Positions 125 to 58,212 of a stretch of DNA of 63,426 nucleotides are shown here, one piece after another. The stretch is taken from NCBI GenBank assembly GCA_012799135.1, contig JAAZLW010000235.1, forward strand, positions 1-63,426, written 5' to 3'. Source of the stretch: Bacillota bacterium (GTDB lineage Bacteria > Bacillota > Limnochordia > DTU087). Position numbers and translations under genes: made by a program. Below the pieces are notes generated by a model, which saw only the letters and a program-made list of their open reading frames with translations, had not been told where the DNA came from and did not search any database. How positions within the stretch are numbered: the stretch's first letter is position 1; every line of letters starts with the position of its first letter.

Positions 125-408
125 ACGATCAGATGCAAAGGCGATGAAGAAGAGAAGTAGCTGGGTGATAACACCTGCAGGGACGGAGTGTCAGGGACTG
201 AAAGCACTCCGGGAGGTTGCCTCAGTGAAGTTCGCTTCGGAGCTGTTGGCTGAAAGCTTAGTAGGCCATACCGGATATCCGCCGTTAGATGGAGAGGGAG
301 GAGTATCTCTTCCCGAAAAGTGGACCTTTCATAGGTGTTTCTATGAAGGTAAGTAGGATGGTACCGCGCAGGTTGTCTTTCGTTCCTAACGGAAGACAAC
401 CTTTTTTG
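125..408 (+). promoter_or_regulatory. T-box leader (Phe specifier) controlling pheST
   Basis: The conserved T-box sequence GGATGGTACCGCG lies at 356-368. GTGAAG-TTC at 225-233 places a TTC (Phe) specifier codon at 231-233. A terminator hairpin follows immediately, and the element sits directly upstream of pheS. Confidence 0.8.
370..408 (+). terminator. T-box attenuator/terminator hairpin
   Basis: AGGTTGTCTT (370-379) pairs with AAGACAACCT (393-402) and is followed by TTTTTT. Confidence 0.8.
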
Positions 409-12639: not shown

Positions 12640-12977
12640 AAGTGATGGGTCGGCATGAATCTGTCGACCGTTTATCAGCGATGAAGGAGAGAGTAGCATT
12701 TGCTTCGGGCTGAAAGAGAGCCGGTGGAGGGTGCAAACCGGCGTCCGAGCTCATGTGAAGTACACTCCTGAGCTTTCCCGTTGAACCGTGCACCCCAGGG
12801 TGCGAGTAGTAGATGGGAACGGCAGCCACCGTTATTGGCTGAAGCGAAGCCGTGAACTAGCGCCAGTGTAGCCTAATCTTCTAACAACGGGATCAGACAC
12901 CGAAAGTGGCTAGTGCACTGCTTAACTAGGGTGGTACCGCGGGAGCCTCTCGTCCCTACAGGATGAGAGGCTTTTTG
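12640..12977 (+). promoter_or_regulatory. T-box leader (Tyr specifier) controlling tyrS
   Basis: GTGAAG-TAC places a TAC (Tyr) specifier codon at 12761-12763. The T-box sequence AGGGTGGTACCGCG lies at 12927-12940. The terminator AGCCTCTC/GAGAGGCT plus TTTTT lies at 12944-12977. Confidence 0.85.
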
Positions 12978-13011: not shown

Positions 13012-14247
13012 ATGTCTATACAGGTCTTATCATTGGAAGAAGAGCTGGCTCTGATCAAGCGGGGGACTGAGGAGATTTTCCCGGAAGAAGAACTAGTAGA
13101 GAAACTCAAGAAGTCTCGTCAGACCAGGAAGCCGCTCAAGGTAAAACTAGGGGTAGATCCTACCGGTGCAGATCTGCATCTAGGACACGTAATCCCTGTA
13201 CTGAAGCTGAAGCAGTTTCAGGATCTGGGTCATGAAGCAATTCTAATTATCGGGGACTATACAGCTATGGTAGGAGACCCTTCGGGCCGCAACAAGACTC
13301 GACCACAGCTCACCCATGAACAAGTCTTGGAAAACTGCCGTACGTATCAGGAGCAGGTTTTCCGAATCCTGGATCCCCAGAAGACAAGGGTAATGTACAA
13401 TGGCGCCTGGTTTAGCAAGATGACCTTCCAGGATGTGATCAAGCTCATGTCTCAGATGACCTTGGCCAGGATGCTGGAACGGGAGGATTTTGCGAGCCGC
13501 TTTCAGAATCAGATGCCTTTGAGCCTACACGAGCTGATCTATCCTCTCATGCAGGGATATGATTCGGCAGCCATTGAGGCCGACATCGAACTAGGTGGAA
13601 TTGACCAGAAGTTCAATATCTTGGTGGGAAGAGACTTACAGAAAACCATGGGGTTGGAGCCCCAAGTGGGTGTATGTAATCCGATCTTAATCGGGCTGGA
13701 TGGTAAGGAAAAAATGAGCAAGAGCTTAGGCAACTACATCGGGATCAAGGATCCCGCCAGTGAAATGTACGGGAAAACCATGTCGTTACCTGATGAGCAG
13801 ATGATGATGTACTTTGAACTAGTCACTGATGTATCTATGGCCAAGCTGCAGAAAATGGAAAAGCAACTAAAGACCGGTGAGTTGCATCCTAGGGATATGA
13901 AGCGTTTCTTGGCCAGAGAAATAGTGAGCCGGTTTCATGACCGGGATGCGGCAATAGAGGCCGAAGCTGAATTTGACCGTGTATTCAAGGAAAACCAAGT
14001 CCCTGAGGATATCCCCGAGGTAATCCTAACCACAGATGACTTGGAGGATGGGAAGATCTGGGTAGTACGGCTGCTGGTCAAGGCGGACCTGGCTACATCC
14101 AACGCAGAGGGCAGACGTTTGATTCAGCAAGGAGGAGTGAGGATCGACGGGGAAATCATTGACAACGTAGATCTGGACTGGGTGCCGAGGGCCAATGCAG
14201 TGGTGCAGGTAGGGAAACGGCGTTTTGCACGGGTAGTTGTGGCCTAG
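13012..14247 (+). CDS. tyrS: tyrosine--tRNA ligase
   Basis: HIGH-type motif (DLHLGHV), KMSKS motif, and a C-terminal S4-like domain ([15 protein letters not shown]). Confidence 0.96.
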
Positions 14248-14307: not shown

Positions 14308-14395
14308 GGGTTTCTCACCACCTGGAGGAAAGGGTATGAACAGCCCCAATGCCAGAATATATATGAGTACGGGCAGGGTGAGGTGGTGAGAGACA

Positions 14396-15122: not shown

Positions 15123-15157
15123 CAAGAACCCAGTGAGGAGAACCTGCTGGGTTCTTG
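15123..15157. terminator. bidirectional hairpin between convergent yunB and the minus-strand island
   Basis: CAAGAACCCAG (15123-15133) pairs perfectly with CTGGGTTCTTG (15147-15157). 11-bp stem, 13-nt loop, no strong U-tract. Confidence 0.55.
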
Positions 15158-15223: not shown

Positions 15224-15544
15224 CTATTTGTCGTGTACACTGAGCTGCTGTCTCACCAGTTCAATCAACTTGCGAGAAGTGTATCGGCCGGATAGAACCA
15301 CTTTGCCATCAAGACAGACAGCTGGGAGTTGATCAGGATGCTCCTTAGCCCAGCTGATGGCTTGTGCTGGACATTCCTGGTCGGCTTGATCGATATCAAC
15401 ATAGGTGAGGACAAGTTGATTCGGGAAGTGAAGGTTCAGCTGCCGCAGATAGAAAGCAGCGACCTCAGCCTGAGGCCGTATCCTACCTTTTCAACCATAG
15501 CATGTACTATGGGTCTTGGAACCGAGGATAATTACATGTAGCAT
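15224..15544 (-). CDS. thioredoxin/glutaredoxin-fold protein with in-frame UGA in a C-x-x-U motif (candidate selenoprotein; YuzD/DUF1462- or Grx-like)
   Basis: ATG at 15544-15542 is preceded by AAAGAGGA. The translation is MLHVIILGSKTHSTCYG-[TGA 15493-15491]-KGRIRPQAEVAAFYLRQLNLHFPNQLVLTYVDIDQ...QLPAVCLDGKVVLSGRYTSRKLIELVRQQLSVHDK, ending at TAG 15226-15224. 88 sense codons follow the TGA, and the first ATG/GTG/TTG among them is codon 64. A hairpin at 15460-15478 lies just 3' of the TGA. The ORF is absent from the track because it is split by the TGA. Confidence 0.55.
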
Positions 15545-16020
15545 GTTGGCGAGTCCTCTTTCTGGTCAGATACTGATAGATCCTCTTCGTGGTCACATAC
15601 TGACAAGTCCTCTTTCTGGTCAGCATCCTGTTTACAGCTCACATCAGCCAAGTGCGTGAAGGCCATCAGAGCACGCTGCTTAATCTCTTCAGGGTCTCGG
15701 ATCCAGTCCACCCATTGCCTGTCTGTAATCATTCTCTTCAGAAATCCAAGCCATGCATTTTTCTCATCGGAACCATCCAGGTTGGTGAGTTCCCATGGAG
15801 GTGGCTGATCTTTGGTAAGGCTACCTTGCTGACATGCCTGATAATGAGCCCAAAGTAAAGCTAGTGCAAAAGGATTAGGTTGATCGCTTTCACTCGCTGA
15901 CCCATGGCTTGTTTGGGCTATTTCAACTTGAATATCCTCCGGGCGCAGAGGTTCAGGAGATGTTTTCGTTACCTTGTAGTACCGCTGTAACCTAACAGTA
16001 GTTGATTTGCCGCCAGGCAT
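15532..16020 (-). CDS. hypothetical protein with acidic C-terminal tandem repeats
   Basis: 162-aa ORF. The ATG is preceded by AGGGGGG. No family recognised. The C-terminus contains EDLSVCDHE/EDLSVSDQK repeats. Its last 13 nt overlap the start of the downstream thioredoxin-fold ORF. Confidence 0.55.
   Translation of the reverse strand: MPGGKSTTVRLQRYYKVTKTSPEPLRPEDIQVEIAQTSHGSASESDQPNPFALALLWAHYQACQQGSLTKDQPPPWELTNLDGSDEKNAWLGFLKRMITDRQWVDWIRDPEEIKQRALMAFTHLADVSCKQDADQKEDLSVCDHEEDLSVSDQKEDSPTCYM
15552..15623. repeat. 27-bp tandem repeat, about 2.7 copies, inside the 162-aa ORF
   Basis: Units are 15552-15578, 15579-15605 (21/27 identical to unit 1) and 15606-15623 (18/18 identical to the start of unit 1). 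Confidence 0.85.
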
Positions 16021-16051
16021 AATCTACCCCCCTAGCATAGCATAGTATTGA

Positions 16052-16083
16052 GGGAGTGCACACTCCTTGTGCTTTGCACTCCC
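16052..16083. repeat. 9-bp perfect inverted repeat (intergenic hairpin) between the 49-aa and 162-aa genes
   Basis: GGGAGTGCA (16052-16060) pairs with TGCACTCCC (16075-16083) across a 14-nt loop. No U-tract on either strand. Confidence 0.5.
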
Positions 16084-16189
16084 CCAGAATCTGTGTTAGC
16101 AGCATCTGCAGGGGCGTTGGATGCAGCCCAACAGCCCCACAGCAAGGAGAGCTATACTAGCACAAGCCAGTAGATGTCGTTTGCAGCTC

Positions 16190-16339
16190 TTACCCTACTG
16201 GCGGACAGGGTCCGAGGCATTCTACTCCGGTCACATCGACACTCGCCGTCACGGTAAAGGTAACCTCGAAAGTAACACAGATGAGCTCATTGAACTCATC
16301 AATACACTGATTGACCTGCTGTTGCTGGAGCCTTGCCAT
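16190..16339 (-). CDS. 49-aa Cys-rich protein, paralogous to the N-terminal domain of the 187-aa neighbour
   Basis: ATG at 16339 lies 6 nt after GAGGAGGTG. The translation is MARLQQQQVNQCIDEFNELICVTFEVTFTVTASVDVTGVECLGPCPPVG, ending at TAA 16192-16190. It is about 50% identical over about 43 aa to residues 6-48 of the 16476-17039 product, with all four Cys aligned. It is below the track's length cut-off. Confidence 0.7.
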   Translation of the reverse strand: MARLQQQQVNQCIDEFNELICVTFEVTFTVTASVDVTGVECLGPCPPVG

Positions 16340-16475
16340 GCATTTCACCTCCTCTGATCCCCTTGGTATCTATCGAGTTGAGAGAACCGACTGCAGTCTA
16401 GAGTACGTTTGCTATTCATATCGCGTCATAAGAGGCAACTCCGATTATTGGCTAACCGGCCCTTGGGTGCAGGGA

Positions 16476-17039
16476 TTACGGACAGGGGCAAGCAGGTCCT
16501 AACTGACAATCGGGATTCACTGTAGCCGGTGCCGGACCACCCTTTGCGGCCACATCCCTGAGCACCTGATCAAACTGTCCCATCACGTCAAAGCAATACA
16601 AGACGACTCCATCGGCCTGGGTTGTGCCGGCATCGAATTTAAGGCCAGATTGTCCTCCCAGATCGGCTTGGGGACCAACGTTGAACGGGATAGGAATCCC
16701 ATTACGTGTAACTTGTGTGACCATAGGAGGGGGATTGCAGAGTTCAAGCACCCAATGGCTGAGTGCCGGATCACCCTGGACACTCACCCGATAGCACCAG
16801 CGCTGGATGGGCCCTAGCTGCTGCACACTCGCAAAGACAATGTGATAGATTGCCGTCTGTCCGGTCTGTGGGTTGGTTACCTCCAGAACGCAGAGCACTT
16901 CCGGGGCACAGGGGCCTAAGCAGTCTACATCAATAACTTCATCGGTGGCCTCGGCGGTGAAAGTAATGGTGAAGGTGGTACAGATCTGTTCATCGAACTC
17001 ATCGGTGCAGGCAGGGATTTGCTGCAGCTCTTGATTCAT
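16476..17039 (-). CDS. 187-aa Cys-rich protein of unknown function
   Basis: ATG is preceded by AAGGAGGTG. The N-terminal domain QQIPACTDEFDEQICTTFTITFTAEATDEVIDVDCLGPCAPEV is shared with the 49-aa ORF. The C-terminus is CQLGPACPCP. No family recognised. Confidence 0.75.
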   Translation of the reverse strand: MNQELQQIPACTDEFDEQICTTFTITFTAEATDEVIDVDCLGPCAPEVLCVLEVTNPQTGQTAIYHIVFASVQQLGPIQRWCYRVSVQGDPALSHWVLELCNPPPMVTQVTRNGIPIPFNVGPQADLGGQSGLKFDAGTTQADGVVLYCFDVMGQFDQVLRDVAAKGGPAPATVNPDCQLGPACPCP

Positions 17040-17072
17040 GGTCGAGTCACCTCCTTTCCATTTCCACTTCAG

Positions 17073-17087
17073 AGTACTCCGAGTACT
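17073..17087. promoter_or_regulatory. 15-bp perfect palindrome upstream of the 187-aa gene (possible operator)
   Basis: AGTACTC-C-GAGTACT at 17073-17087. It lies about 15 nt upstream of the SD of the 187-aa ORF (SD complement at 17049-17056), 34 nt from its ATG at 17039. Confidence 0.35.
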
Positions 17088-54050: not shown

Positions 54051-55286
54051 TTGGGAGTGACGGACTTAGCAGAGGAACATTTGGTGGCGAGCCTAGACAT
54101 AGGTACGTCCAAAGTGGCCATAGTCATAGCTGAAATGAACTCTTTTGGCGTACAAAGGATTATTGGGATAGGCACCGGTTTTCACAACGGTTTACACCGA
54201 GGAATAGTCAGTGATGTCGATGGGGTTCGGAAGGCTGTGATGGAGGCTGTCATAAAGGCGGAGAGGATGGCGCAGGTGGTCTTGCCTCCCGTAGTGGTAG
54301 GGATACCAGGCAGTTTCTGTTCATCCTTCGCTGCCAGTGGTGCTATAACGATTACCAGATCTAATCATCAAGTTCAATCGGAAGATGTCGAGAGAGTCTT
54401 AGGTGCAGCTGAAGCTGTAGCGATTCCACCGGGACGGCGGGTAATCCATAGGTTTGTGCGTGCTTTTCGGTTGGATGGTCAGCATCTGGAAGGACAACCA
54501 CTGGGTTTGGTAGGACGGCGTTTAGAGGTGGATGTTCAATTTGTCACCGCAGCTTTGGCACCTCTGGAGGGACTCATTGACTGTATTGAGCAAGCGGGTG
54601 TGAAGATCGGGGAAGTAATAGTACAGTGCCTGGCCATATCCGACATGGTGCTGGCTCCCAGCCATAGGAAGTTGGGAGTCGTTTTGGTTGACCTAGGAGC
54701 AGGGCTCACCGATGTGGTGGTGTTTCGCAAGGGTCATTTGCAGCACATGGCTTGTCTGCCCATTGGTACCGACAGCCTGGTCCGGGACCTTATTATTGGC
54801 CTGAAGGTTTCCCCGGTGGAAGCCGAGGGCTTAGTGCGGGAACTAGGGTGTAATCCGGATCCCGAGCGCTTTGCTGGTTTCTGGGAAGGTTGCCAAGGCG
54901 ATAGCGATATACAGATTCAATTACTAGATCAATATAACGAAATTCTTATGGCCAGGGCAGAGGAGATCTGGCAGCTAGTGAGAAGTCAGGTGGCGAAGGT
55001 AGGTGGTGTCAACCTGCAGGCAGGAGTGAAGATGGTGGGCGGGGGAGTGCTGGTCCCCGGATTGGCTGACCTGGGATCGAGGATTCTCCATCTACCGGTG
55101 GATGCAATAGTGCCGGTGGAAATGGAAGATCTGCCCGAAGCTGGCCGAAACCCTGCCTATGCAGCAGCAGTGGGATTAGTTCGACACAGAACTGTACCGC
55201 TGTTAGCACTACCGGAGGCTCATAAAAGCATACCCGCGTCTTGGGCTGTTCTGTGGCAAAAGGTACGTGATTGGCTCAAATTCTAG
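54051..55286 (+). CDS. ftsA: cell division protein FtsA
   Basis: Actin-like ATPase motifs (SLDIGTSKVAIVIAE, VLVDLGAGLTDVVVF, VGGGVLVPGLADL). TTG start. Directly upstream of ftsZ. Confidence 0.9.
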   Translation: MGVTDLAEEHLVASLDIGTSKVAIVIAEMNSFGVQRIIGIGTGFHNGLHRGIVSDVDGVRKAVMEAVIKAERMAQVVLPPVVVGIPGSFCSSFAASGAITITRSNHQVQSEDVERVLGAAEAVAIPPGRRVIHRFVRAFRLDGQHLEGQPLGLVGRRLEVDVQFVTAALAPLEGLIDCIEQAGVKIGEVIVQCLAISDMVLAPSHRKLGVVLVDLGAGLTDVVVFRKGHLQHMACLPIGTDSLVRDLIIGLKVSPVEAEGLVRELGCNPDPERFAGFWEGCQGDSDIQIQLLDQYNEILMARAEEIWQLVRSQVAKVGGVNLQAGVKMVGGGVLVPGLADLGSRILHLPVDAIVPVEMEDLPEAGRNPAYAAAVGLVRHRTVPLLALPEAHKSIPASWAVLWQKVRDWLKF

Positions 55287-55331
55287 CAAGAGATATGCCG
55301 GTGGGTTCCGGTTCTTGGGAGGTAAAGGGAC

Positions 55332-56396
55332 ATGTTCGAATTCGATACGCAAGCTGGACAGTTTGCCAACATAAAGGTGGTTGGAGTTGGTGGGGGTGGT
55401 AGCAATGCGGTGAATCGGATGATCGATGCGGAACTGCAGGGTGTGCAGTTTATTGCTTTGAATACTGATGCCCAGGCTCTACTGCTATCGAACGCCAGCC
55501 ACAAAATCCAGATGGGCGAGAAACTGACCAGGGGTCTGGGAGCAGGATCCAACCCCGACATTGGCCAAAAGGCAGCAGAAGAGAGCCGGGATGAGATCAA
55601 GGCCCTTCTGGAAGGCGCGGATATGATCTTCATTACCGCCGGGATGGGTGGTGGAACGGGCACCGGCGGAGCGCCGATAGTGGCGGAAATAGCGCGAGAG
55701 GTTGCGGCTTTAACGGTGGGAGTGGTAACCAAGCCTTTTAGTTTTGAGGGTAGACGCCGAATGAAACAAGCGGAAGCAGGGACCGCGGCACTCAAAGATA
55801 AAGTCGATACGTTAATCACCATCCCCAATGATCGATTACTACAAGTGGCAGAGAAGAAGACTTCTATTGTCGAGGCCTTTCGCATGGCCGACGATGTACT
55901 CCTCCATGGAGTACAAGGAATATCCAATCTGATCACGGTTCCTGGCCTGATCAATCTCGATTTTGCCGATGTCAGGACAATCATGACTGATGCCGGCTCT
56001 GCCTTAATGGGTCTAGGTTATGCTACCGGTGAAAATCGAGCGGCTAAGGCGGCCACCATGGCCATCTCCAGCCCTTTGCTGGAGGCTTCCATTGAGGGCG
56101 CTAAGGGGATTTTGCTGAGTATAACCGGTAACTCTTCCTTAGGGCTATTTGAAGTCAATGAAGCTGCAGAGCTGATCGCTGCAGCAGCAGATCCTGATGC
56201 CAATATTATCTTTGGAGCGGTCATCGACGAAGCACTGAAAGAGGAACTGCGGGTAACTGTTATTGCCACTGGTTTCGGGGACCGTACTCAAACCAGACCG
56301 GAGCAGGTCAATCGCCAGAGTATTAAAGATGAGTTTGATATCAAACCTTTTGCCACCGATGATTTGGACATACCGGCTTTCTTACGTCGAAAATAG
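55332..56396 (+). CDS. ftsZ: cell division protein FtsZ
   Basis: [17 protein letters not shown], tubulin signature [19 protein letters not shown], and a C-terminal DIPAFLRRK peptide. Confidence 0.98.
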
Positions 56397-56418
56397 GGTT
56401 GGGGGCGGGGGACTGATC

Positions 56419-57147
56419 TCACTCTAGCCTTTTGATCTCCCGCCTCAGTTTTTTCAAGATACGCTTTTCCAGGCGTGAAATATAAGACTGGGATATGCCT
56501 AAGCAGTCCGCAACTTCTTTTTGGGTTTTCTCCTCACCATCCTCCAGCCCAAACCTGAGTTTCATGATCCTTGTTTCCCGGGGGCTTAGCCGTTTTAGGG
56601 CACCCACCAATAGTGCCCGGTCAACTTCCTCCTCAATCCCTTTACTGACATTGCTTTCGACACCCAGTATATCGATCCAGCCAATCTCATTTCCATCATA
56701 ATCGGTATGGAGGGGTTCCTCCAAAGAAACTTCCACCCGTGTTTTACTGTTCCGCCGCAAAAACATGCGGATTTCGTTATCTATACACTTAGAAGCATAG
56801 GTAGCTAATTTGACATTCCGGCCCGGATCAAAGGTATTCACAGCCTTAATTAAGCCGATGGTTCCAATTGAGACCAGGTCCTCGATGCCAACTCCGGAGC
56901 TTTCGAACTTACGAGCAATATATACAACCAGTCGGAGGTTACGTTCGATCAAGGTATTTCTAACTGCACTATCTCCAGAGCCGAGCCGTTGTAGTAATCG
57001 GCTTTCTTCTTCTGCTTCTAAGGGTGGAGGCAATACTTCATTACTGCCTATATAGTGTACAGCCGGTGGCTTCAACCCGACTCTCTGGCAGAGGCGAAAA
57101 GCCATCATCCGCAAACTCAGTGAGATACGGAGCCATTTTCGTTTCAC
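56419..57147 (-). CDS. sigE: sporulation sigma factor SigE (pro-sigma-E)
   Basis: Pro-sequence followed by VHYIGSNEVLPPPL, LIERNLRLVVYIARKFE, SIGTIGLIKAVNTF, KLATYASKCIDNEI and GISQSYISRLEKRILKKLR. Co-linear with B. subtilis SigE as I recall it. 4-nt overlap with spoIIGA. Confidence 0.93.
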   Translation of the reverse strand: MKRKWLRISLSLRMMAFRLCQRVGLKPPAVHYIGSNEVLPPPLEAEEESRLLQRLGSGDSAVRNTLIERNLRLVVYIARKFESSGVGIEDLVSIGTIGLIKAVNTFDPGRNVKLATYASKCIDNEIRMFLRRNSKTRVEVSLEEPLHTDYDGNEIGWIDILGVESNVSKGIEEEVDRALLVGALKRLSPRETRIMKLRFGLEDGEEKTQKEVADCLGISQSYISRLEKRILKKLRREIKRLE

Positions 57148-58115
57148 TGCCGCTCTCCTCCCAAGGTCGCCGGGGTGACAACCGGTGATGCGGAAATAGT
57201 CGCTAAGGTGCCTTGCAAGATAACAGGCGGTATAAGTGCTTGGTATTCGCCGGCTGCATCGAGCTGGTGATCACAGATCGCAACAATGGCGTCACTAGCC
57301 GGAACGGTTTGCCCCGAGATCTCCAGTGTTACTCTATCTGGTCGAAATCCAACAAGTATGCCGTTCTTCTTTCCCAAAGAAGTATATGGGATGATCCGAA
57401 AACGGCTAGACCATTGCGATGTTGCCAGAAGCTGCGTAAGAGCCTGCTCATTTCCGGCCTCCAGTTGATGGATACTCCCGGCCAAGTCCGCTGGAAGTAG
57501 CTTGGTCAATAGGTCCTGCTCCAAGACAATGACAGGCACACCCGTCAGAGGGTCAGTCAAATGGTTACCTGTATCGATCAGTCCAATCACCCTGATCGCG
57601 GCGGAACCAAAATGGATGTTCACCGGGAATTGATAGATCTGTCTTAGCATTCTGTGTTGCACAACTCCCCAGCCTAGTTCAGCAATGATTAGAATCCCGG
57701 CTATGGCCACCAATAGCCCTAGAATGGCATTCGGTTGTGTAGGTGTACCCAGAAGGTAAGCAGCTGCCAGGCCGGCCCCGCCGGCTCCAAAACCAATACC
57801 GAGAAAATGCAAGAGCAGCCTACCTAGTTGGCGGGATGACACTGGATAAAAGGCAATCACCAGCATAATGATGGTGACCAGTAATATAGTAGGTATGAAA
57901 CGCAACAGCCCATAGTAGGGAACAATCCGCATGCTGGCTAGATACAGTAAGAGAAAGTGACTAGTTCCGATAAACGCCCCCAAGCAAAGGCGTTGCCAAG
58001 TGGTTTTGGCCAGAGTAACAGCAGCGGTAGCCCATAACAAGAGGTAGTCACAGGCGAAATTGGCCGCCAGATAAAGCAAGAGGACGTCCACGTACACTAC
58101 GTAATCAAACCCCAT
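57144..58115 (-). CDS. spoIIGA: sigma-E processing peptidase SpoIIGA
   Basis: Five N-terminal TM helices and a C-terminal aspartic protease motif LIDTGNHLTDPLTG. ATG 58115 lies 6 nt after AGGTGAGGTG. The track ORF starts at GTG 58124. Confidence 0.9.
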   Translation of the reverse strand: MGFDYVVYVDVLLLYLAANFACDYLLLWATAAVTLAKTTWQRLCLGAFIGTSHFLLLYLASMRIVPYYGLLRFIPTILLVTIIMLVIAFYPVSSRQLGRLLLHFLGIGFGAGGAGLAAAYLLGTPTQPNAILGLLVAIAGILIIAELGWGVVQHRMLRQIYQFPVNIHFGSAAIRVIGLIDTGNHLTDPLTGVPVIVLEQDLLTKLLPADLAGSIHQLEAGNEQALTQLLATSQWSSRFRIIPYTSLGKKNGILVGFRPDRVTLEISGQTVPASDAIVAICDHQLDAAGEYQALIPPVILQGTLATISASPVVTPATLGGERQ

Positions 58116-58212
58116 TTGCTTCACCTCACCTGTTGGCCTTCTGCTCTATATTACATAGCAGAATTGCCAGTTCCTTCTGTATTGAGATAAATCGCAATAC
58201 GCACTTCCTGCG

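What the first reader, a model, noticed from the sequence alone, without database searches (positions are those of the whole stretch)
15224..17087. Four-gene minus-strand island between yunB and pgsA: Cys-rich proteins, a repeat protein and a putative Sec oxidoreductase
Everything flanking this island is on the + strand and is housekeeping. This 1.9-kb insert runs the other way and contains only unassignable genes.

In order these are the 187-aa Cys-rich protein, its 49-aa paralogue, a 162-aa protein with acidic tandem repeats, and the CxxU thioredoxin-fold ORF. The last starts 13 nt inside the end of the 162-aa ORF, which suggests translational coupling. The island is bounded by an 11-bp-stem bidirectional hairpin (15123-15157) and preceded by a 15-bp palindrome (17073-17087).

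Cys-rich substrates linked to a dedicated thiol-disulfide (seleno)oxidoreductase would make a coherent functional module. I know of no described system with this composition.
Basis: inference. Interest (0 to 1): 0.75.

Follow-up and report, generated by a model that had tools for sequence, protein, structure and literature searches.

The report
Conserved cysteine-rich cluster with new selenoprotein
A small gene cluster found only in a few uncultured spore-forming biogas bacteria encodes two cysteine-rich proteins, an unknown protein and a previously undescribed thioredoxin-like protein that almost certainly contains selenocysteine; it is real and new, but its role is only inferred.

Summary

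Gene order A-B-C-D is kept in six species-level lineages of uncultured Bacillota from anaerobic digesters.

D is a strong selenoprotein candidate:
- All six orthologues keep the TGA inside TC[YH]G-U.
- Both sides of the TGA are under strong purifying selection.
- A stem-loop just downstream is conserved even at synonymous sites.
- No in-frame restart codon is conserved.
- TGA is an ordinary stop elsewhere in the window.

D models as a thioredoxin fold. Its closest structure is S. aureus SA0798 (DUF1462/YuzD-like), and CxxU aligns to that protein's CxxC. It passes no curated family threshold, and no close Cys homologue was found.

The A C-terminal β-sandwich recurs at the N-terminus of giant secreted adhesin-like proteins in other phyla. 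A itself has no signal peptide.

The "substrates plus dedicated oxidoreductase" reading is only partly supported. Two more divergent lineages keep A-B-C without D, C is not Cys-rich, and the cluster is not a foreign insert. A spore-surface, disulfide-linked assembly role is inference. The Sec machinery of this genome could not be checked.

The parts
16476..17039 (-). Gene A, 187 aa, 11 Cys, no signal peptide. It has an N-terminal 4-Cys domain (residues ~1-47), a beta-sandwich domain (~48-156) and a C-terminal DCxLGPxCPCP tail.
   Evidence: ORF. The family has only 10 proteins in 5.8 billion. Ten Cys are invariant among 7 orthologues. The AF2 model has a moderately confident beta-sandwich at 48-156 and unmodelled termini. 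Residues ~60-185 are 31-40% identical to the N-terminal domain of giant Big_9/cadherin-like secreted proteins in other phyla.
16190..16339 (-). Gene B, 49 aa. It is a stand-alone paralogue of the N-terminal 4-Cys domain of A.
   Evidence: Alignment A2 shows the shared C-x8-C-x19-C-x3-C pattern and CLGPC motif. B is 77-83% identical in orthologous loci and always lies between A and C. A conserved GGAGGTG ribosome-binding site and an upstream AACGTAnTCTAGA motif precede it.
15532..16020 (-). Gene C, 162 aa, with a basic N-terminus. The core of ~120 residues is conserved and Trp-rich. The acidic tail is variable.
   Evidence: ORF. Only 7 homologues were found, all in the same cluster. Alignment A7 shows the invariant residues, and that Cys63 is not invariant. 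No family hits.
15554..15634 (-). Three tandem 27-nt (9-aa, acidic) repeats in the tail of C. They are specific to this genome.
   Evidence: the repeat finder family D1. The tail is absent from orthologues. Several public contigs of this organism end inside C.
15224..15544 (-). Gene D, 106 codons. It is a thioredoxin-fold protein with C15-x-x-U18, where U is the in-frame TGA at 15491-15493. It overlaps the end of C by 13 nt.
   Evidence: Translation. The TGA and flanking motif are kept in 6 orthologues. pN is far below pS on both sides of the TGA. The AF2 model has pLDDT 83.5 and a beta-alpha-beta-alpha-beta-beta-alpha topology. The top Foldseek hit is 1xg8 with TM 0.72, followed by thioredoxins and ArsD. 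hhalign places TCYGC on ICASC of 1xg8.
15447..15488 (-). SECIS-like two-tier stem-loop starting 3 nt after the UGA. The upper hairpin CGGCCUCA-GGC-UGAGGUCG lies at 15460-15478.
   Evidence: Fold predictions. The 8-bp hairpin is also flagged. 92.7% of cells pair across 6 orthologues, against 31-45% when partners are slid. Codons P24, Q25 and E27 inside the hairpin are the only nucleotide-invariant multi-codon positions in the gene.
16049..16086 (-). Conserved hairpin GGGAGUGCA...UGCACUCCC in the B-C spacer, ~30 nt upstream of the C start.
   Evidence: Inverted repeat I2. It is present in all 5 aligned orthologues with G-U-compatible changes only. Its function is unknown.
17041..17079 (-). Conserved leader of A: GAGTAYTCT..GAAGTG..GAAAGGAGGTGAC, including the ribosome-binding site.
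   Evidence: Alignment of six upstream regions. The sigma factor could not be assigned.
15123..15157 (.). Perfect 11-bp inverted repeat between the convergent ends of yunB and D.
   Evidence: the repeat finder I1. There is no T-run and the terminator scan did not call it. A terminator role is inferred only.

Best explanation
This is a vertically inherited, lineage-specific gene cluster of uncultured spore-forming Bacillota. It is transcribed divergently from pgsA.

**Shown**
- D is translated through a conserved UGA with the help of a SECIS-like stem-loop.
- The product is a ~105-residue cytoplasmic thioredoxin-fold protein with a Cys-x-x-Sec redox motif.
- The motif sits at the position of the CxxC of DUF1462/YuzD-type proteins.
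- D is therefore a new selenoprotein family candidate.

**Inferred**
- A and B are leaderless, Cys-rich structural proteins.
- A carries a beta-sandwich that is extracellular in other phyla, flanked by N- and C-terminal CLGPC-type cysteine motifs. B is the N-terminal cysteine module alone.
- In an endospore former, the most economical way to put such a protein outside the cell without a signal peptide is to deposit it from the mother cell onto the spore surface. There the terminal cysteines would cross-link subunits by disulfides.
- D, which is translationally coupled to C, would keep those cysteines reduced or reshuffle them until assembly.
- A-B-C is the core. D is an accessory added in one sub-clade.

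**Confidence by part:** D is a selenoprotein, about 0.8. D acts on A/B, about 0.35. A/B are spore-surface building blocks, about 0.3. The overall figure of 0.45 is for the statement as a whole.
For: **D is a selenoprotein**
- The UGA at codon 18 is kept in 6 orthologues inside TC[YH]G-U-[KR][GA][RK][IV]RPQ.
- dN/dS is ~0.05-0.3 for the 17 codons before and the 83 codons after the UGA, while synonymous sites are saturated.
- No in-frame restart codon is conserved.
- The hairpin is kept, with 92.7% of cells paired and only G-U-compatible changes. It holds the only nucleotide-invariant synonymous sites in the gene.
- 13 of 49 long ORFs end in TGA, so the genome is not recoded.

**Fold**
- AF2 pLDDT 83.5. 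The top Foldseek hit is 1xg8 (TM 0.72), followed by thioredoxins and ArsD.
- CxxU aligns to the CxxC of 1xg8.

**Linkage**
- The order A-B-C-D is kept in all six lineages where the contig reaches that far.
- C and D overlap or abut, and D has its own conserved ribosome-binding site.

**A as an extracellular-type structural domain**
- A is homologous to the N-terminal domain of Big_9/cadherin-repeat surface proteins.
- It has ten invariant Cys and no signal peptide (the sequence shows this directly).

**Spore former**
- YunB and BofC flank the cluster.

**Not mobile**
- GC equals that of the window.
- There are no phage, plasmid or defence hits.
Against: - No selA, selB, selD or tRNA-Sec could be looked for.
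- The hairpin shows no double compensatory change. It overlaps a conserved peptide, RPQAEV.
- D is absent from two A-B-C lineages, so A-B-C does not need it.
- No sporulation promoter could be recognised upstream of A or B.
- The model of A is poor (pLDDT 54.6) and finds no significant structural match.
- The N-terminal 4-Cys domain could equally bind a metal.
- There are no expression or localisation data.
Confidence: 0.45

Rival explanations
1. D is a selenoprotein but has nothing specific to do with A-B-C. It would be a general small redox carrier or a metal(loid)-handling chaperone of the ArsD / MTH895 / YuzD type that happens to lie downstream.
For: Weak sequence matches to ArsD (0.016-0.025), Thioredoxin_3 (5 of 5 orthologues, best 0.022) and redox_disulf_2. 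ArsD structures appear among the Foldseek hits. A-B-C exists without D in two lineages.
Against: D was found only in this context. The metagenome pattern scan returned only the known locus, and exhaustive phmmer found no real relative. D overlaps or abuts C in every case. There are no arsenic or metal-resistance genes nearby. The ArsD Cys12-Cys13-Cys18 triad is absent; D has only C15 and U18.
Confidence: 0.25
2. A and B are cytoplasmic metal- or cluster-binding proteins, not spore-surface building blocks, and C-D service that cofactor. The 4-Cys N-domain would be a metal site.
For: The strictly conserved C-x8-C-x19-C-x3-C pattern is shared by A and B. Neither has a signal peptide. AF2 could not model the domain alone, as is common for metal-dependent folds.
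Against: The beta-sandwich of A is otherwise seen only at the N-terminus of secreted giant adhesin-like proteins. The extra Cys pairs at the extreme C-terminus mimic the N-terminal CLGPC motif, which suits intermolecular linking better than one metal site.
Confidence: 0.2
3. The TGA in D is a real stop. D would be a pseudogene or a 17-residue peptide gene, and the downstream similarity would be residual.
For: Automatic gene callers did not call D in any public contig. Rfam has no match for the hairpin.
Against: Six orthologues with saturated synonymous divergence keep the frame, the TGA and 64-77% amino-acid identity, with pN far below pS on both sides. No conserved restart codon exists.
Confidence: 0.03
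4. The cluster is a horizontally acquired island or mobile cassette inserted between yunB and pgsA.
For: It has the opposite strand to 55 kb of surrounding genes. One distant relative, L007, has A-B-C next to a transposase, with an internal duplication.
Against: GC is identical to the window. There is no integrase, tRNA or direct-repeat boundary. The same pgsA-side neighbourhood occurs in at least seven related lineages. There are no phage or plasmid matches.
Confidence: 0.05

Closest known systems
DUF1462 / YuzD-like thioredoxin-fold proteins (Pfam PF07315; structure 1xg8, S. aureus SA0798)
   Same: They have the same size (~105 aa) and the same beta-alpha-beta-alpha-beta-beta-alpha fold. 1xg8 is the best structural match (TM 0.72). 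The redox motif sits in the loop several residues before helix 1. D's TCYG-U aligns column for column with ICASC. Both share the downstream [FY]PN...TY[IV]DI pattern.
   Different: Sequence similarity is below Pfam's threshold (14.6 bits against 25; best E 0.0022 among the orthologues). D has selenocysteine in place of the second Cys. D was seen only in a narrow uncultured clade and only next to A-B-C. YuzD itself has no established function.
Thioredoxin-fold CxxU/UxxC bacterial selenoproteins, e.g. SaoT of the SAO system (bioRxiv 10.1101/2022.07.06.499078) and Sec-containing Trx, Grx and SelW-like proteins (own knowledge)
   Same: D is a small thioredoxin-like protein. Sec replaces one Cys of the redox motif. 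Databases truncate it at the UGA, and a stem-loop follows the UGA.
   Different: D does not match the SaoT model or any other NCBIfam model. No close Cys-containing homologue was found, whereas almost all known families have many (PMC12013277). The gene neighbourhood is different.
ArsD arsenic metallochaperone (PF06953 / NF033727)
   Same: It shares the thioredoxin fold without a helix-capping CxxC. Sequence and structural matches are weak.
   Different: Scores are far below the cut-offs (16.5 bits against 90). The Cys12-Cys13-Cys18 triad is absent, and there is no ars operon nearby.
Bacillus endospore appendage (Ena) subunits, DUF3992 (bioRxiv 10.1101/2020.08.21.260141)
   Same: This is an analogy in design only. 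Both are small leaderless proteins of a spore former, encoded by adjacent paralogous genes. Both have a beta-sandwich core plus an N-terminal Cys-bearing extension; in Enas that extension makes intersubunit disulfides.
   Different: There is no DUF3992 or other Pfam match. A's N-terminal domain is ~45 residues with 4 Cys, rather than a 15-residue connector with a Cys-Cys pair. No fibre or spore association is shown. Ena loci have no oxidoreductase partner.
N-terminal domain of giant Big_9/cadherin-repeat surface proteins of Bipolaricaulota, Thermotogae, Dehalococcoidales and Bacteroidales MAGs (unnamed domain)
   Same: There is true sequence homology to A residues ~60-185, at 31-40% identity. 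The shared motif is TW.Y.V.SG..PALSHWVLE ... G[IL]KF[DE] ... [IA]KAG.
   Different: Those proteins have signal or anchor sequences and hundreds to thousands of residues of repeats. They lack the Cys pattern and the N-terminal 4-Cys domain. The domain itself is in neither Pfam nor NCBIfam.

Membership tests
Bacterial selenoprotein gene (Sec-UGA with bacterial SECIS) | In-frame UGA conserved among orthologues, with protein conservation on both sides | tested here: met
   6 of 6 orthologues keep the TGA at codon 18. pN is far below pS both upstream and downstream.
Bacterial selenoprotein gene (Sec-UGA with bacterial SECIS) | Stem-loop immediately downstream of the UGA with G in the apical loop. 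The stem-loop requirement is from PMC12013277; the bSECISearch-type geometry is from my own knowledge. | tested here: met
   The two-tier stem-loop starts 3 nt after the UGA. The GG[C/A] loop lies ~21 nt from the UGA. 92.7% of cells pair against 31-45% in slid controls. There are no double compensatory changes, so support comes from conservation, not covariation.
Bacterial selenoprotein gene (Sec-UGA with bacterial SECIS) | Homologues with Cys at the Sec position | tested here: inconclusive
   No close Cys homologue was found. Only a remote alignment puts U18 on the second Cys of the CxxC of 1xg8 (hhalign E 1.7e-4, probability 50%).
Bacterial selenoprotein gene (Sec-UGA with bacterial SECIS) | selA, selB, selD and tRNA-Sec present in the same genome | not testable with these tools
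   Only a 63-kb window is held and it has no such genes. Its tRNAs are Asn and Met only.
DUF1462 / YuzD (PF07315) | Score at or above Pfam's gathering threshold (25 bits) | tested here: not met
   14.6 bits, E 0.043 for the window protein. 3 of 5 orthologues match, best E 0.0022.
DUF1462 / YuzD (PF07315) | Same fold and same position of the CxxC motif | tested here: met
   1xg8 is the top Foldseek hit, TM 0.72/0.70. TCYG[U] aligns to ICASC.
ArsD metallochaperone (PF06953, NF033727) | Curated score cut-off, and the three-Cys metalloid site (Cys12, Cys13, Cys18; own knowledge) | tested here: not met
   15.3 bits against 27, and 16.5 bits against 90. The sequence has only C15 and U18 in that region.
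SaoT thioredoxin-like selenoprotein (NF040730) | Match to the NCBIfam model | tested here: not met
   The NCBIfam scan at E <= 0.1 returned no such hit.
Ena endospore-appendage subunits (DUF3992) | DUF3992 domain | tested here: not met
   A and B have no Pfam hit at E <= 1. The resemblance is architectural only.
Genomic island / mobile element | Deviant composition, mobility genes, or variable presence at a fixed site | tested here: not met
   GC is 0.513, equal to the window. No mobility genes or tRNA flank the cluster. The pgsA-side synteny is conserved in relatives.

The most novel reading that the evidence does not exclude
A dedicated selenocysteine oxidoreductase controls the disulfide-driven self-assembly of a new class of leaderless Cys-rich building blocks (A, with B as a short cap or nucleator) on the endospore surface. 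That would be the first link between selenium use and the building of a spore or other extracellular structure. It would also be a selenoprotein family with no close cysteine counterpart, which Sec/Cys-pair discovery pipelines cannot see.
Probability: 0.15. Interest if true: 0.8.

Novelty: new variant of a known kind. Interest (0 to 1): 0.5.

Why it matters
- **Blind spot in discovery methods.** D adds a thioredoxin-fold selenoprotein family that gene callers truncate. It has no detectable close Cys homologue among 1.8 billion representative proteins. Standard discovery methods depend on Sec/Cys pairs (PMC12013277), so families like this one are missed.
- **A clue for YuzD.** D gives the uncharacterised DUF1462/YuzD family a functional hint: the aligned CxxC is probably a true redox site.
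- **A testable partner hypothesis.** If the linkage to A and B is functional, it would show a selenoenzyme dedicated to a small set of structural Cys-rich proteins in spore formers.
- **Limits.** The clade is narrow and uncultured, and thioredoxin-like CxxU proteins are the most common type of new selenoprotein. The finding is solid but not a surprise in kind.

Tried and rejected
- **Rfam:** neither the gathering nor the permissive search found an RNA family for the SECIS-like hairpin or the B-C hairpin.
- **Word-indexed protein search with D (U->C):** nothing.
- **Exhaustive phmmer with the 88 residues after the UGA:** only 5 multi-stretch hits in long proteins, which I judge spurious.
- **Metagenome pattern scan for D:** returned only a locus already known.
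- **phmmer of D's N-terminal half against PDB:** nothing.
- **AF2 model of A:** too weak for fold assignment. The Foldseek hits (LTA4 hydrolase N-domain and others, E > 0.01) were disregarded.
- **PHROGs, PADLOC, plasmid and phage searches:** all negative. This rejects phage, defence or plasmid origin.
- **Sigma factor assignment:** I tried to assign one from conserved upstream motifs (GAGTAYTCT before A, ACGTAnTCT before B). They fit only a loose TAnnnT -10 element and match no Bacillus sporulation sigma consensus that I could defend.
- **Literature searches for MAG names, YuzD, and DUF1462 with selenoprotein:** nothing usable.
- **SCIFF/ranthipeptide or other RiPP precursor role for B:** considered and set aside. 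No maturase is nearby, and B is simply the N-domain of A.
Full report
**1. The observation**

- A: 17039..16476, 187 aa
- B: 16339..16190, 49 aa
- C: 16020..15532, 162 aa
- D: 15544..15224

D reads MLHVIILGSKTHSTCYG-TGA-KGRIRPQAEV... to a TAG, and its ATG lies 13 nt inside C.

Among ORFs of at least 130 aa from 440 to 55286, A and C are the only minus-strand ones not nested inside a longer plus-strand ORF. The flanks are YunB on one side, and a CDP-alcohol phosphatidyltransferase and PrsW on the other.

The 11-bp inverted repeat at 15123-15157, the AGTACTcggAGTACT element at 17073-17087 and three 27-nt repeats in the tail of C are all present. A, B and C match nothing in Pfam, NCBIfam, PHROGs or PADLOC.

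**2. The cluster is conserved but narrow, and it is not an insert**

A has only ten relatives among 5.8 billion clustered proteins, and C has only seven. All come from biogas or anaerobic-digester assemblies labelled Bacillota or Firmicutes bacterium.

Fetching the contigs and running tblastn shows the order A-B-C-D in six species-level lineages: the window, L010/L031, L011, L013, L034 and L004-6/L014. A is 69-86% identical, B 77-83%, C 52-63% and D 64-77%.

On the A side the neighbours are always pgsA-prsW-yebC-bofC-ruvCAB. The far side differs. It is yunB/tyrS here, PGM/NAGPA in L004-6, and a 5S rRNA gene in L030.

The cluster has the same GC as the window, 0.513. It has no mobility genes, tRNA or phage or plasmid relatives. 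It is therefore a lineage-specific, vertically inherited cluster at a synteny breakpoint, not a foreign island.

**3. D is a strong selenoprotein candidate**

- All six orthologues keep the TGA at codon 18 within TC[YH]G-U-[KR][GA][RK][IV]RPQ[AD]EVAAFYLRQL.
- Between species, synonymous sites are saturated (pS 0.5-0.9). Non-synonymous differences stay at 0.1-0.26 in the 17 codons before the TGA and 0.1-0.24 in the 83 codons after it.
- No in-frame start codon is conserved after the TGA. In the window the first one is codon 82. The conserved downstream 64+ residues can therefore only be made by reading through.
- TGA ends 13 of 49 long ORFs in the window, so the code is standard.
- A two-tier stem-loop begins 3 nt after the TGA. 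Its upper hairpin is CG[G/A]CCUCA-GG[C/A]-UGAGGU[C/U]G.
- The stem-loop pairs in 92.7% of cells across the six sequences, against 31-45% when partners are slid.
- The base changes are G-U-compatible single changes. There are no double compensatory changes.
- Among codons whose amino acid is invariant, the only multi-codon ones that are also invariant at the nucleotide level are P24, Q25 and E27, all inside this hairpin. That points to selection on the RNA.
- This geometry is what a bacterial SECIS looks like: a stem-loop immediately downstream of the Sec codon (PMC12013277). That the loop G lies about 21 nt from the UGA, within the bSECISearch range, is from my own knowledge.

What could not be tested is whether the organism has selA, selB, selD and tRNA-Sec.

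**4. What D is**

A single-sequence AF2 model is confident (pLDDT 83.5, pTM 0.74) and has the thioredoxin topology.

The best PDB match is 1xg8, S. aureus SA0798, a DUF1462/YuzD-like protein (TM 0.72). Thioredoxins and ArsD follow.

Sequence matches to Thioredoxin_3, DUF1462 and ArsD are all below the curated cut-offs. The SaoT selenoprotein model does not match.

A profile-sequence alignment to 1xg8 places TCYG-U exactly on ICASC (E 1.7e-4, probability 50%).

No close Cys-containing relative was found, either with the word-indexed search or with exhaustive phmmer over 1.84 billion representatives. One caveat applies: gene callers would not have called Sec-containing copies.

I therefore treat D as a new, Sec-containing offshoot of the YuzD/ArsD/MTH895 part of the thioredoxin-fold clan. 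It is not a member of any curated family.

**5. A, B and C**

A and B share a ~45-residue domain with four invariant Cys (C-x8-C-x19-C-x3-C, ending CLGPC). A ends in a similar DCxLGPxCPCP motif, and ten of its Cys are invariant.

A residues ~60-185 form a beta-sandwich of moderate model confidence. They are 31-40% identical to an unnamed domain at the N-terminus of very large Big_9/cadherin-repeat proteins with signal or anchor sequences. Those proteins occur in Bipolaricaulota, Thermotogae, Dehalococcoidales and Bacteroidales MAGs. A itself starts with an acidic, non-hydrophobic sequence behind a conserved ribosome-binding site.

C has a conserved, Trp-rich ~120-residue core and a variable acidic tail. 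Its one core Cys is not invariant, and the tandem repeat is unique to this genome.

**6. Mechanism**

Shown:
- a conserved cluster;
- a read-through thioredoxin-fold protein with CxxU;
- C and D coupled or abutting.

Inferred:
- A carries an extracellular-type domain but no export signal, and its host is an endospore former (YunB and BofC flank the cluster).
- The simplest route to the outside is deposition from the mother cell onto the spore.
- Cysteine motifs at both ends of A, and B being one such end alone, suggest disulfide-linked assembly with B as a cap or nucleator.
- Bacillus Ena fibres, made of a jellyroll plus a Cys-bearing N-terminal connector, are a design precedent (bioRxiv 10.1101/2020.08.21.260141). 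There is no homology.
- D would hold or reshuffle these thiols.

Against a strict dependence, two more divergent lineages have A-B-C without D: L007, and L028-30 where a terminator-like hairpin and 5S rRNA follow C.

I could not recognise a sporulation promoter.

**7. Rivals**

The rivals are listed separately with their evidence:
- D as an unrelated general redox or metal(loid) carrier.
- A and B as cytoplasmic metal-binding proteins.
- D as a pseudogene.
- The cluster as a mobile island.

The conservation data essentially exclude the last two.

**8. Verdict**

D is a credible new thioredoxin-fold selenoprotein family, tightly linked in one sub-clade to a conserved, uncharacterised Cys-rich gene set.

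The kind of protein (CxxU thioredoxin fold) is well known. The family, its lack of close Cys homologues and its gene partners are new. Function remains inference.

Scores:
- Interest: 0.5.
- Most novel reading not excluded: selenium-dependent control of spore-surface assembly. Probability about 0.15, interest 0.8 if true.

Noticed in passing
window 16049-16086 (minus strand); also L010, L011, L013, L014 B-C spacers: A 9-12-bp hairpin, GGGAGUGCA...UGCACUCCC, is conserved in all five aligned orthologues. It lies ~30 nt upstream of the C start. A second conserved hairpin, GGGCU.UUGG...CCAA.GCC, sits in the same ~170-nt spacer. Together they could be an attenuator, terminator or processing site separating A/B from C/D expression. 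There is no Rfam match.
   Followed up: partly
L015-L026 (e.g. L018 7851-9401, L019 7764-..., L025 7698-15740): An unnamed ~120-residue domain sits at the N-terminus of giant Big_9/cadherin-repeat surface proteins in four other phyla. Its motif is TW.Y.V.SG..PALSHWVLE ... G[IL]KF[DE] ... [IA]KAG. It is in neither Pfam nor NCBIfam. The Dehalococcoidales copies (L018, L021) start with a GTSG[FH]FSDTE-type signal region that resembles SipW/TasA-type signals (own knowledge).
   Followed up: partly
L007 4477-7482: In a distant relative (JGI 3300065744) the cluster reads A-B'-C, then a C-terminal fragment of A, then B'-C again. This is a tandem duplication. It lies next to DUF2164, an ABC transporter and a DDE transposase. 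There is no D, and B' may carry an N-terminal extension.
   Followed up: partly
L030 881-1152; L028, L029: In the GCA_012519025.1 lineage, C is followed by a terminator-like hairpin and a 5S rRNA gene on the opposite strand. This probably explains why many contigs of related genomes end just past the cluster.
   Followed up: yes
window 15554-15634; L035-L038: The 27-nt tandem repeat in the tail of C is specific to this organism. Several independent public assemblies of the same organism break inside C, which is consistent with repeat-induced assembly gaps.
   Followed up: partly
window 135-390 and 12672-12960: Two T-box leaders score above Rfam's gathering threshold. The second lies directly upstream of the 411-aa ORF (13012-14247), which carries HLGH and KMSKS motifs and is a TyrS-like class I aminoacyl-tRNA synthetase.
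   Followed up: no
window 14340-14375 and 17071-17079: The string ATGAGTAC upstream of yunB resembles the conserved GAGTAYTCT upstream of A (ATGAGTATCCT in L014). It may be a shared promoter element or a coincidence. It is too short to test here.
   Followed up: no
window 55283-58124: This is the only other stretch of minus-strand ORFs of at least 130 aa that are not nested in a longer plus-strand ORF in the window: three ORFs of 233, 242 and 326 aa. They were not examined.
   Followed up: no
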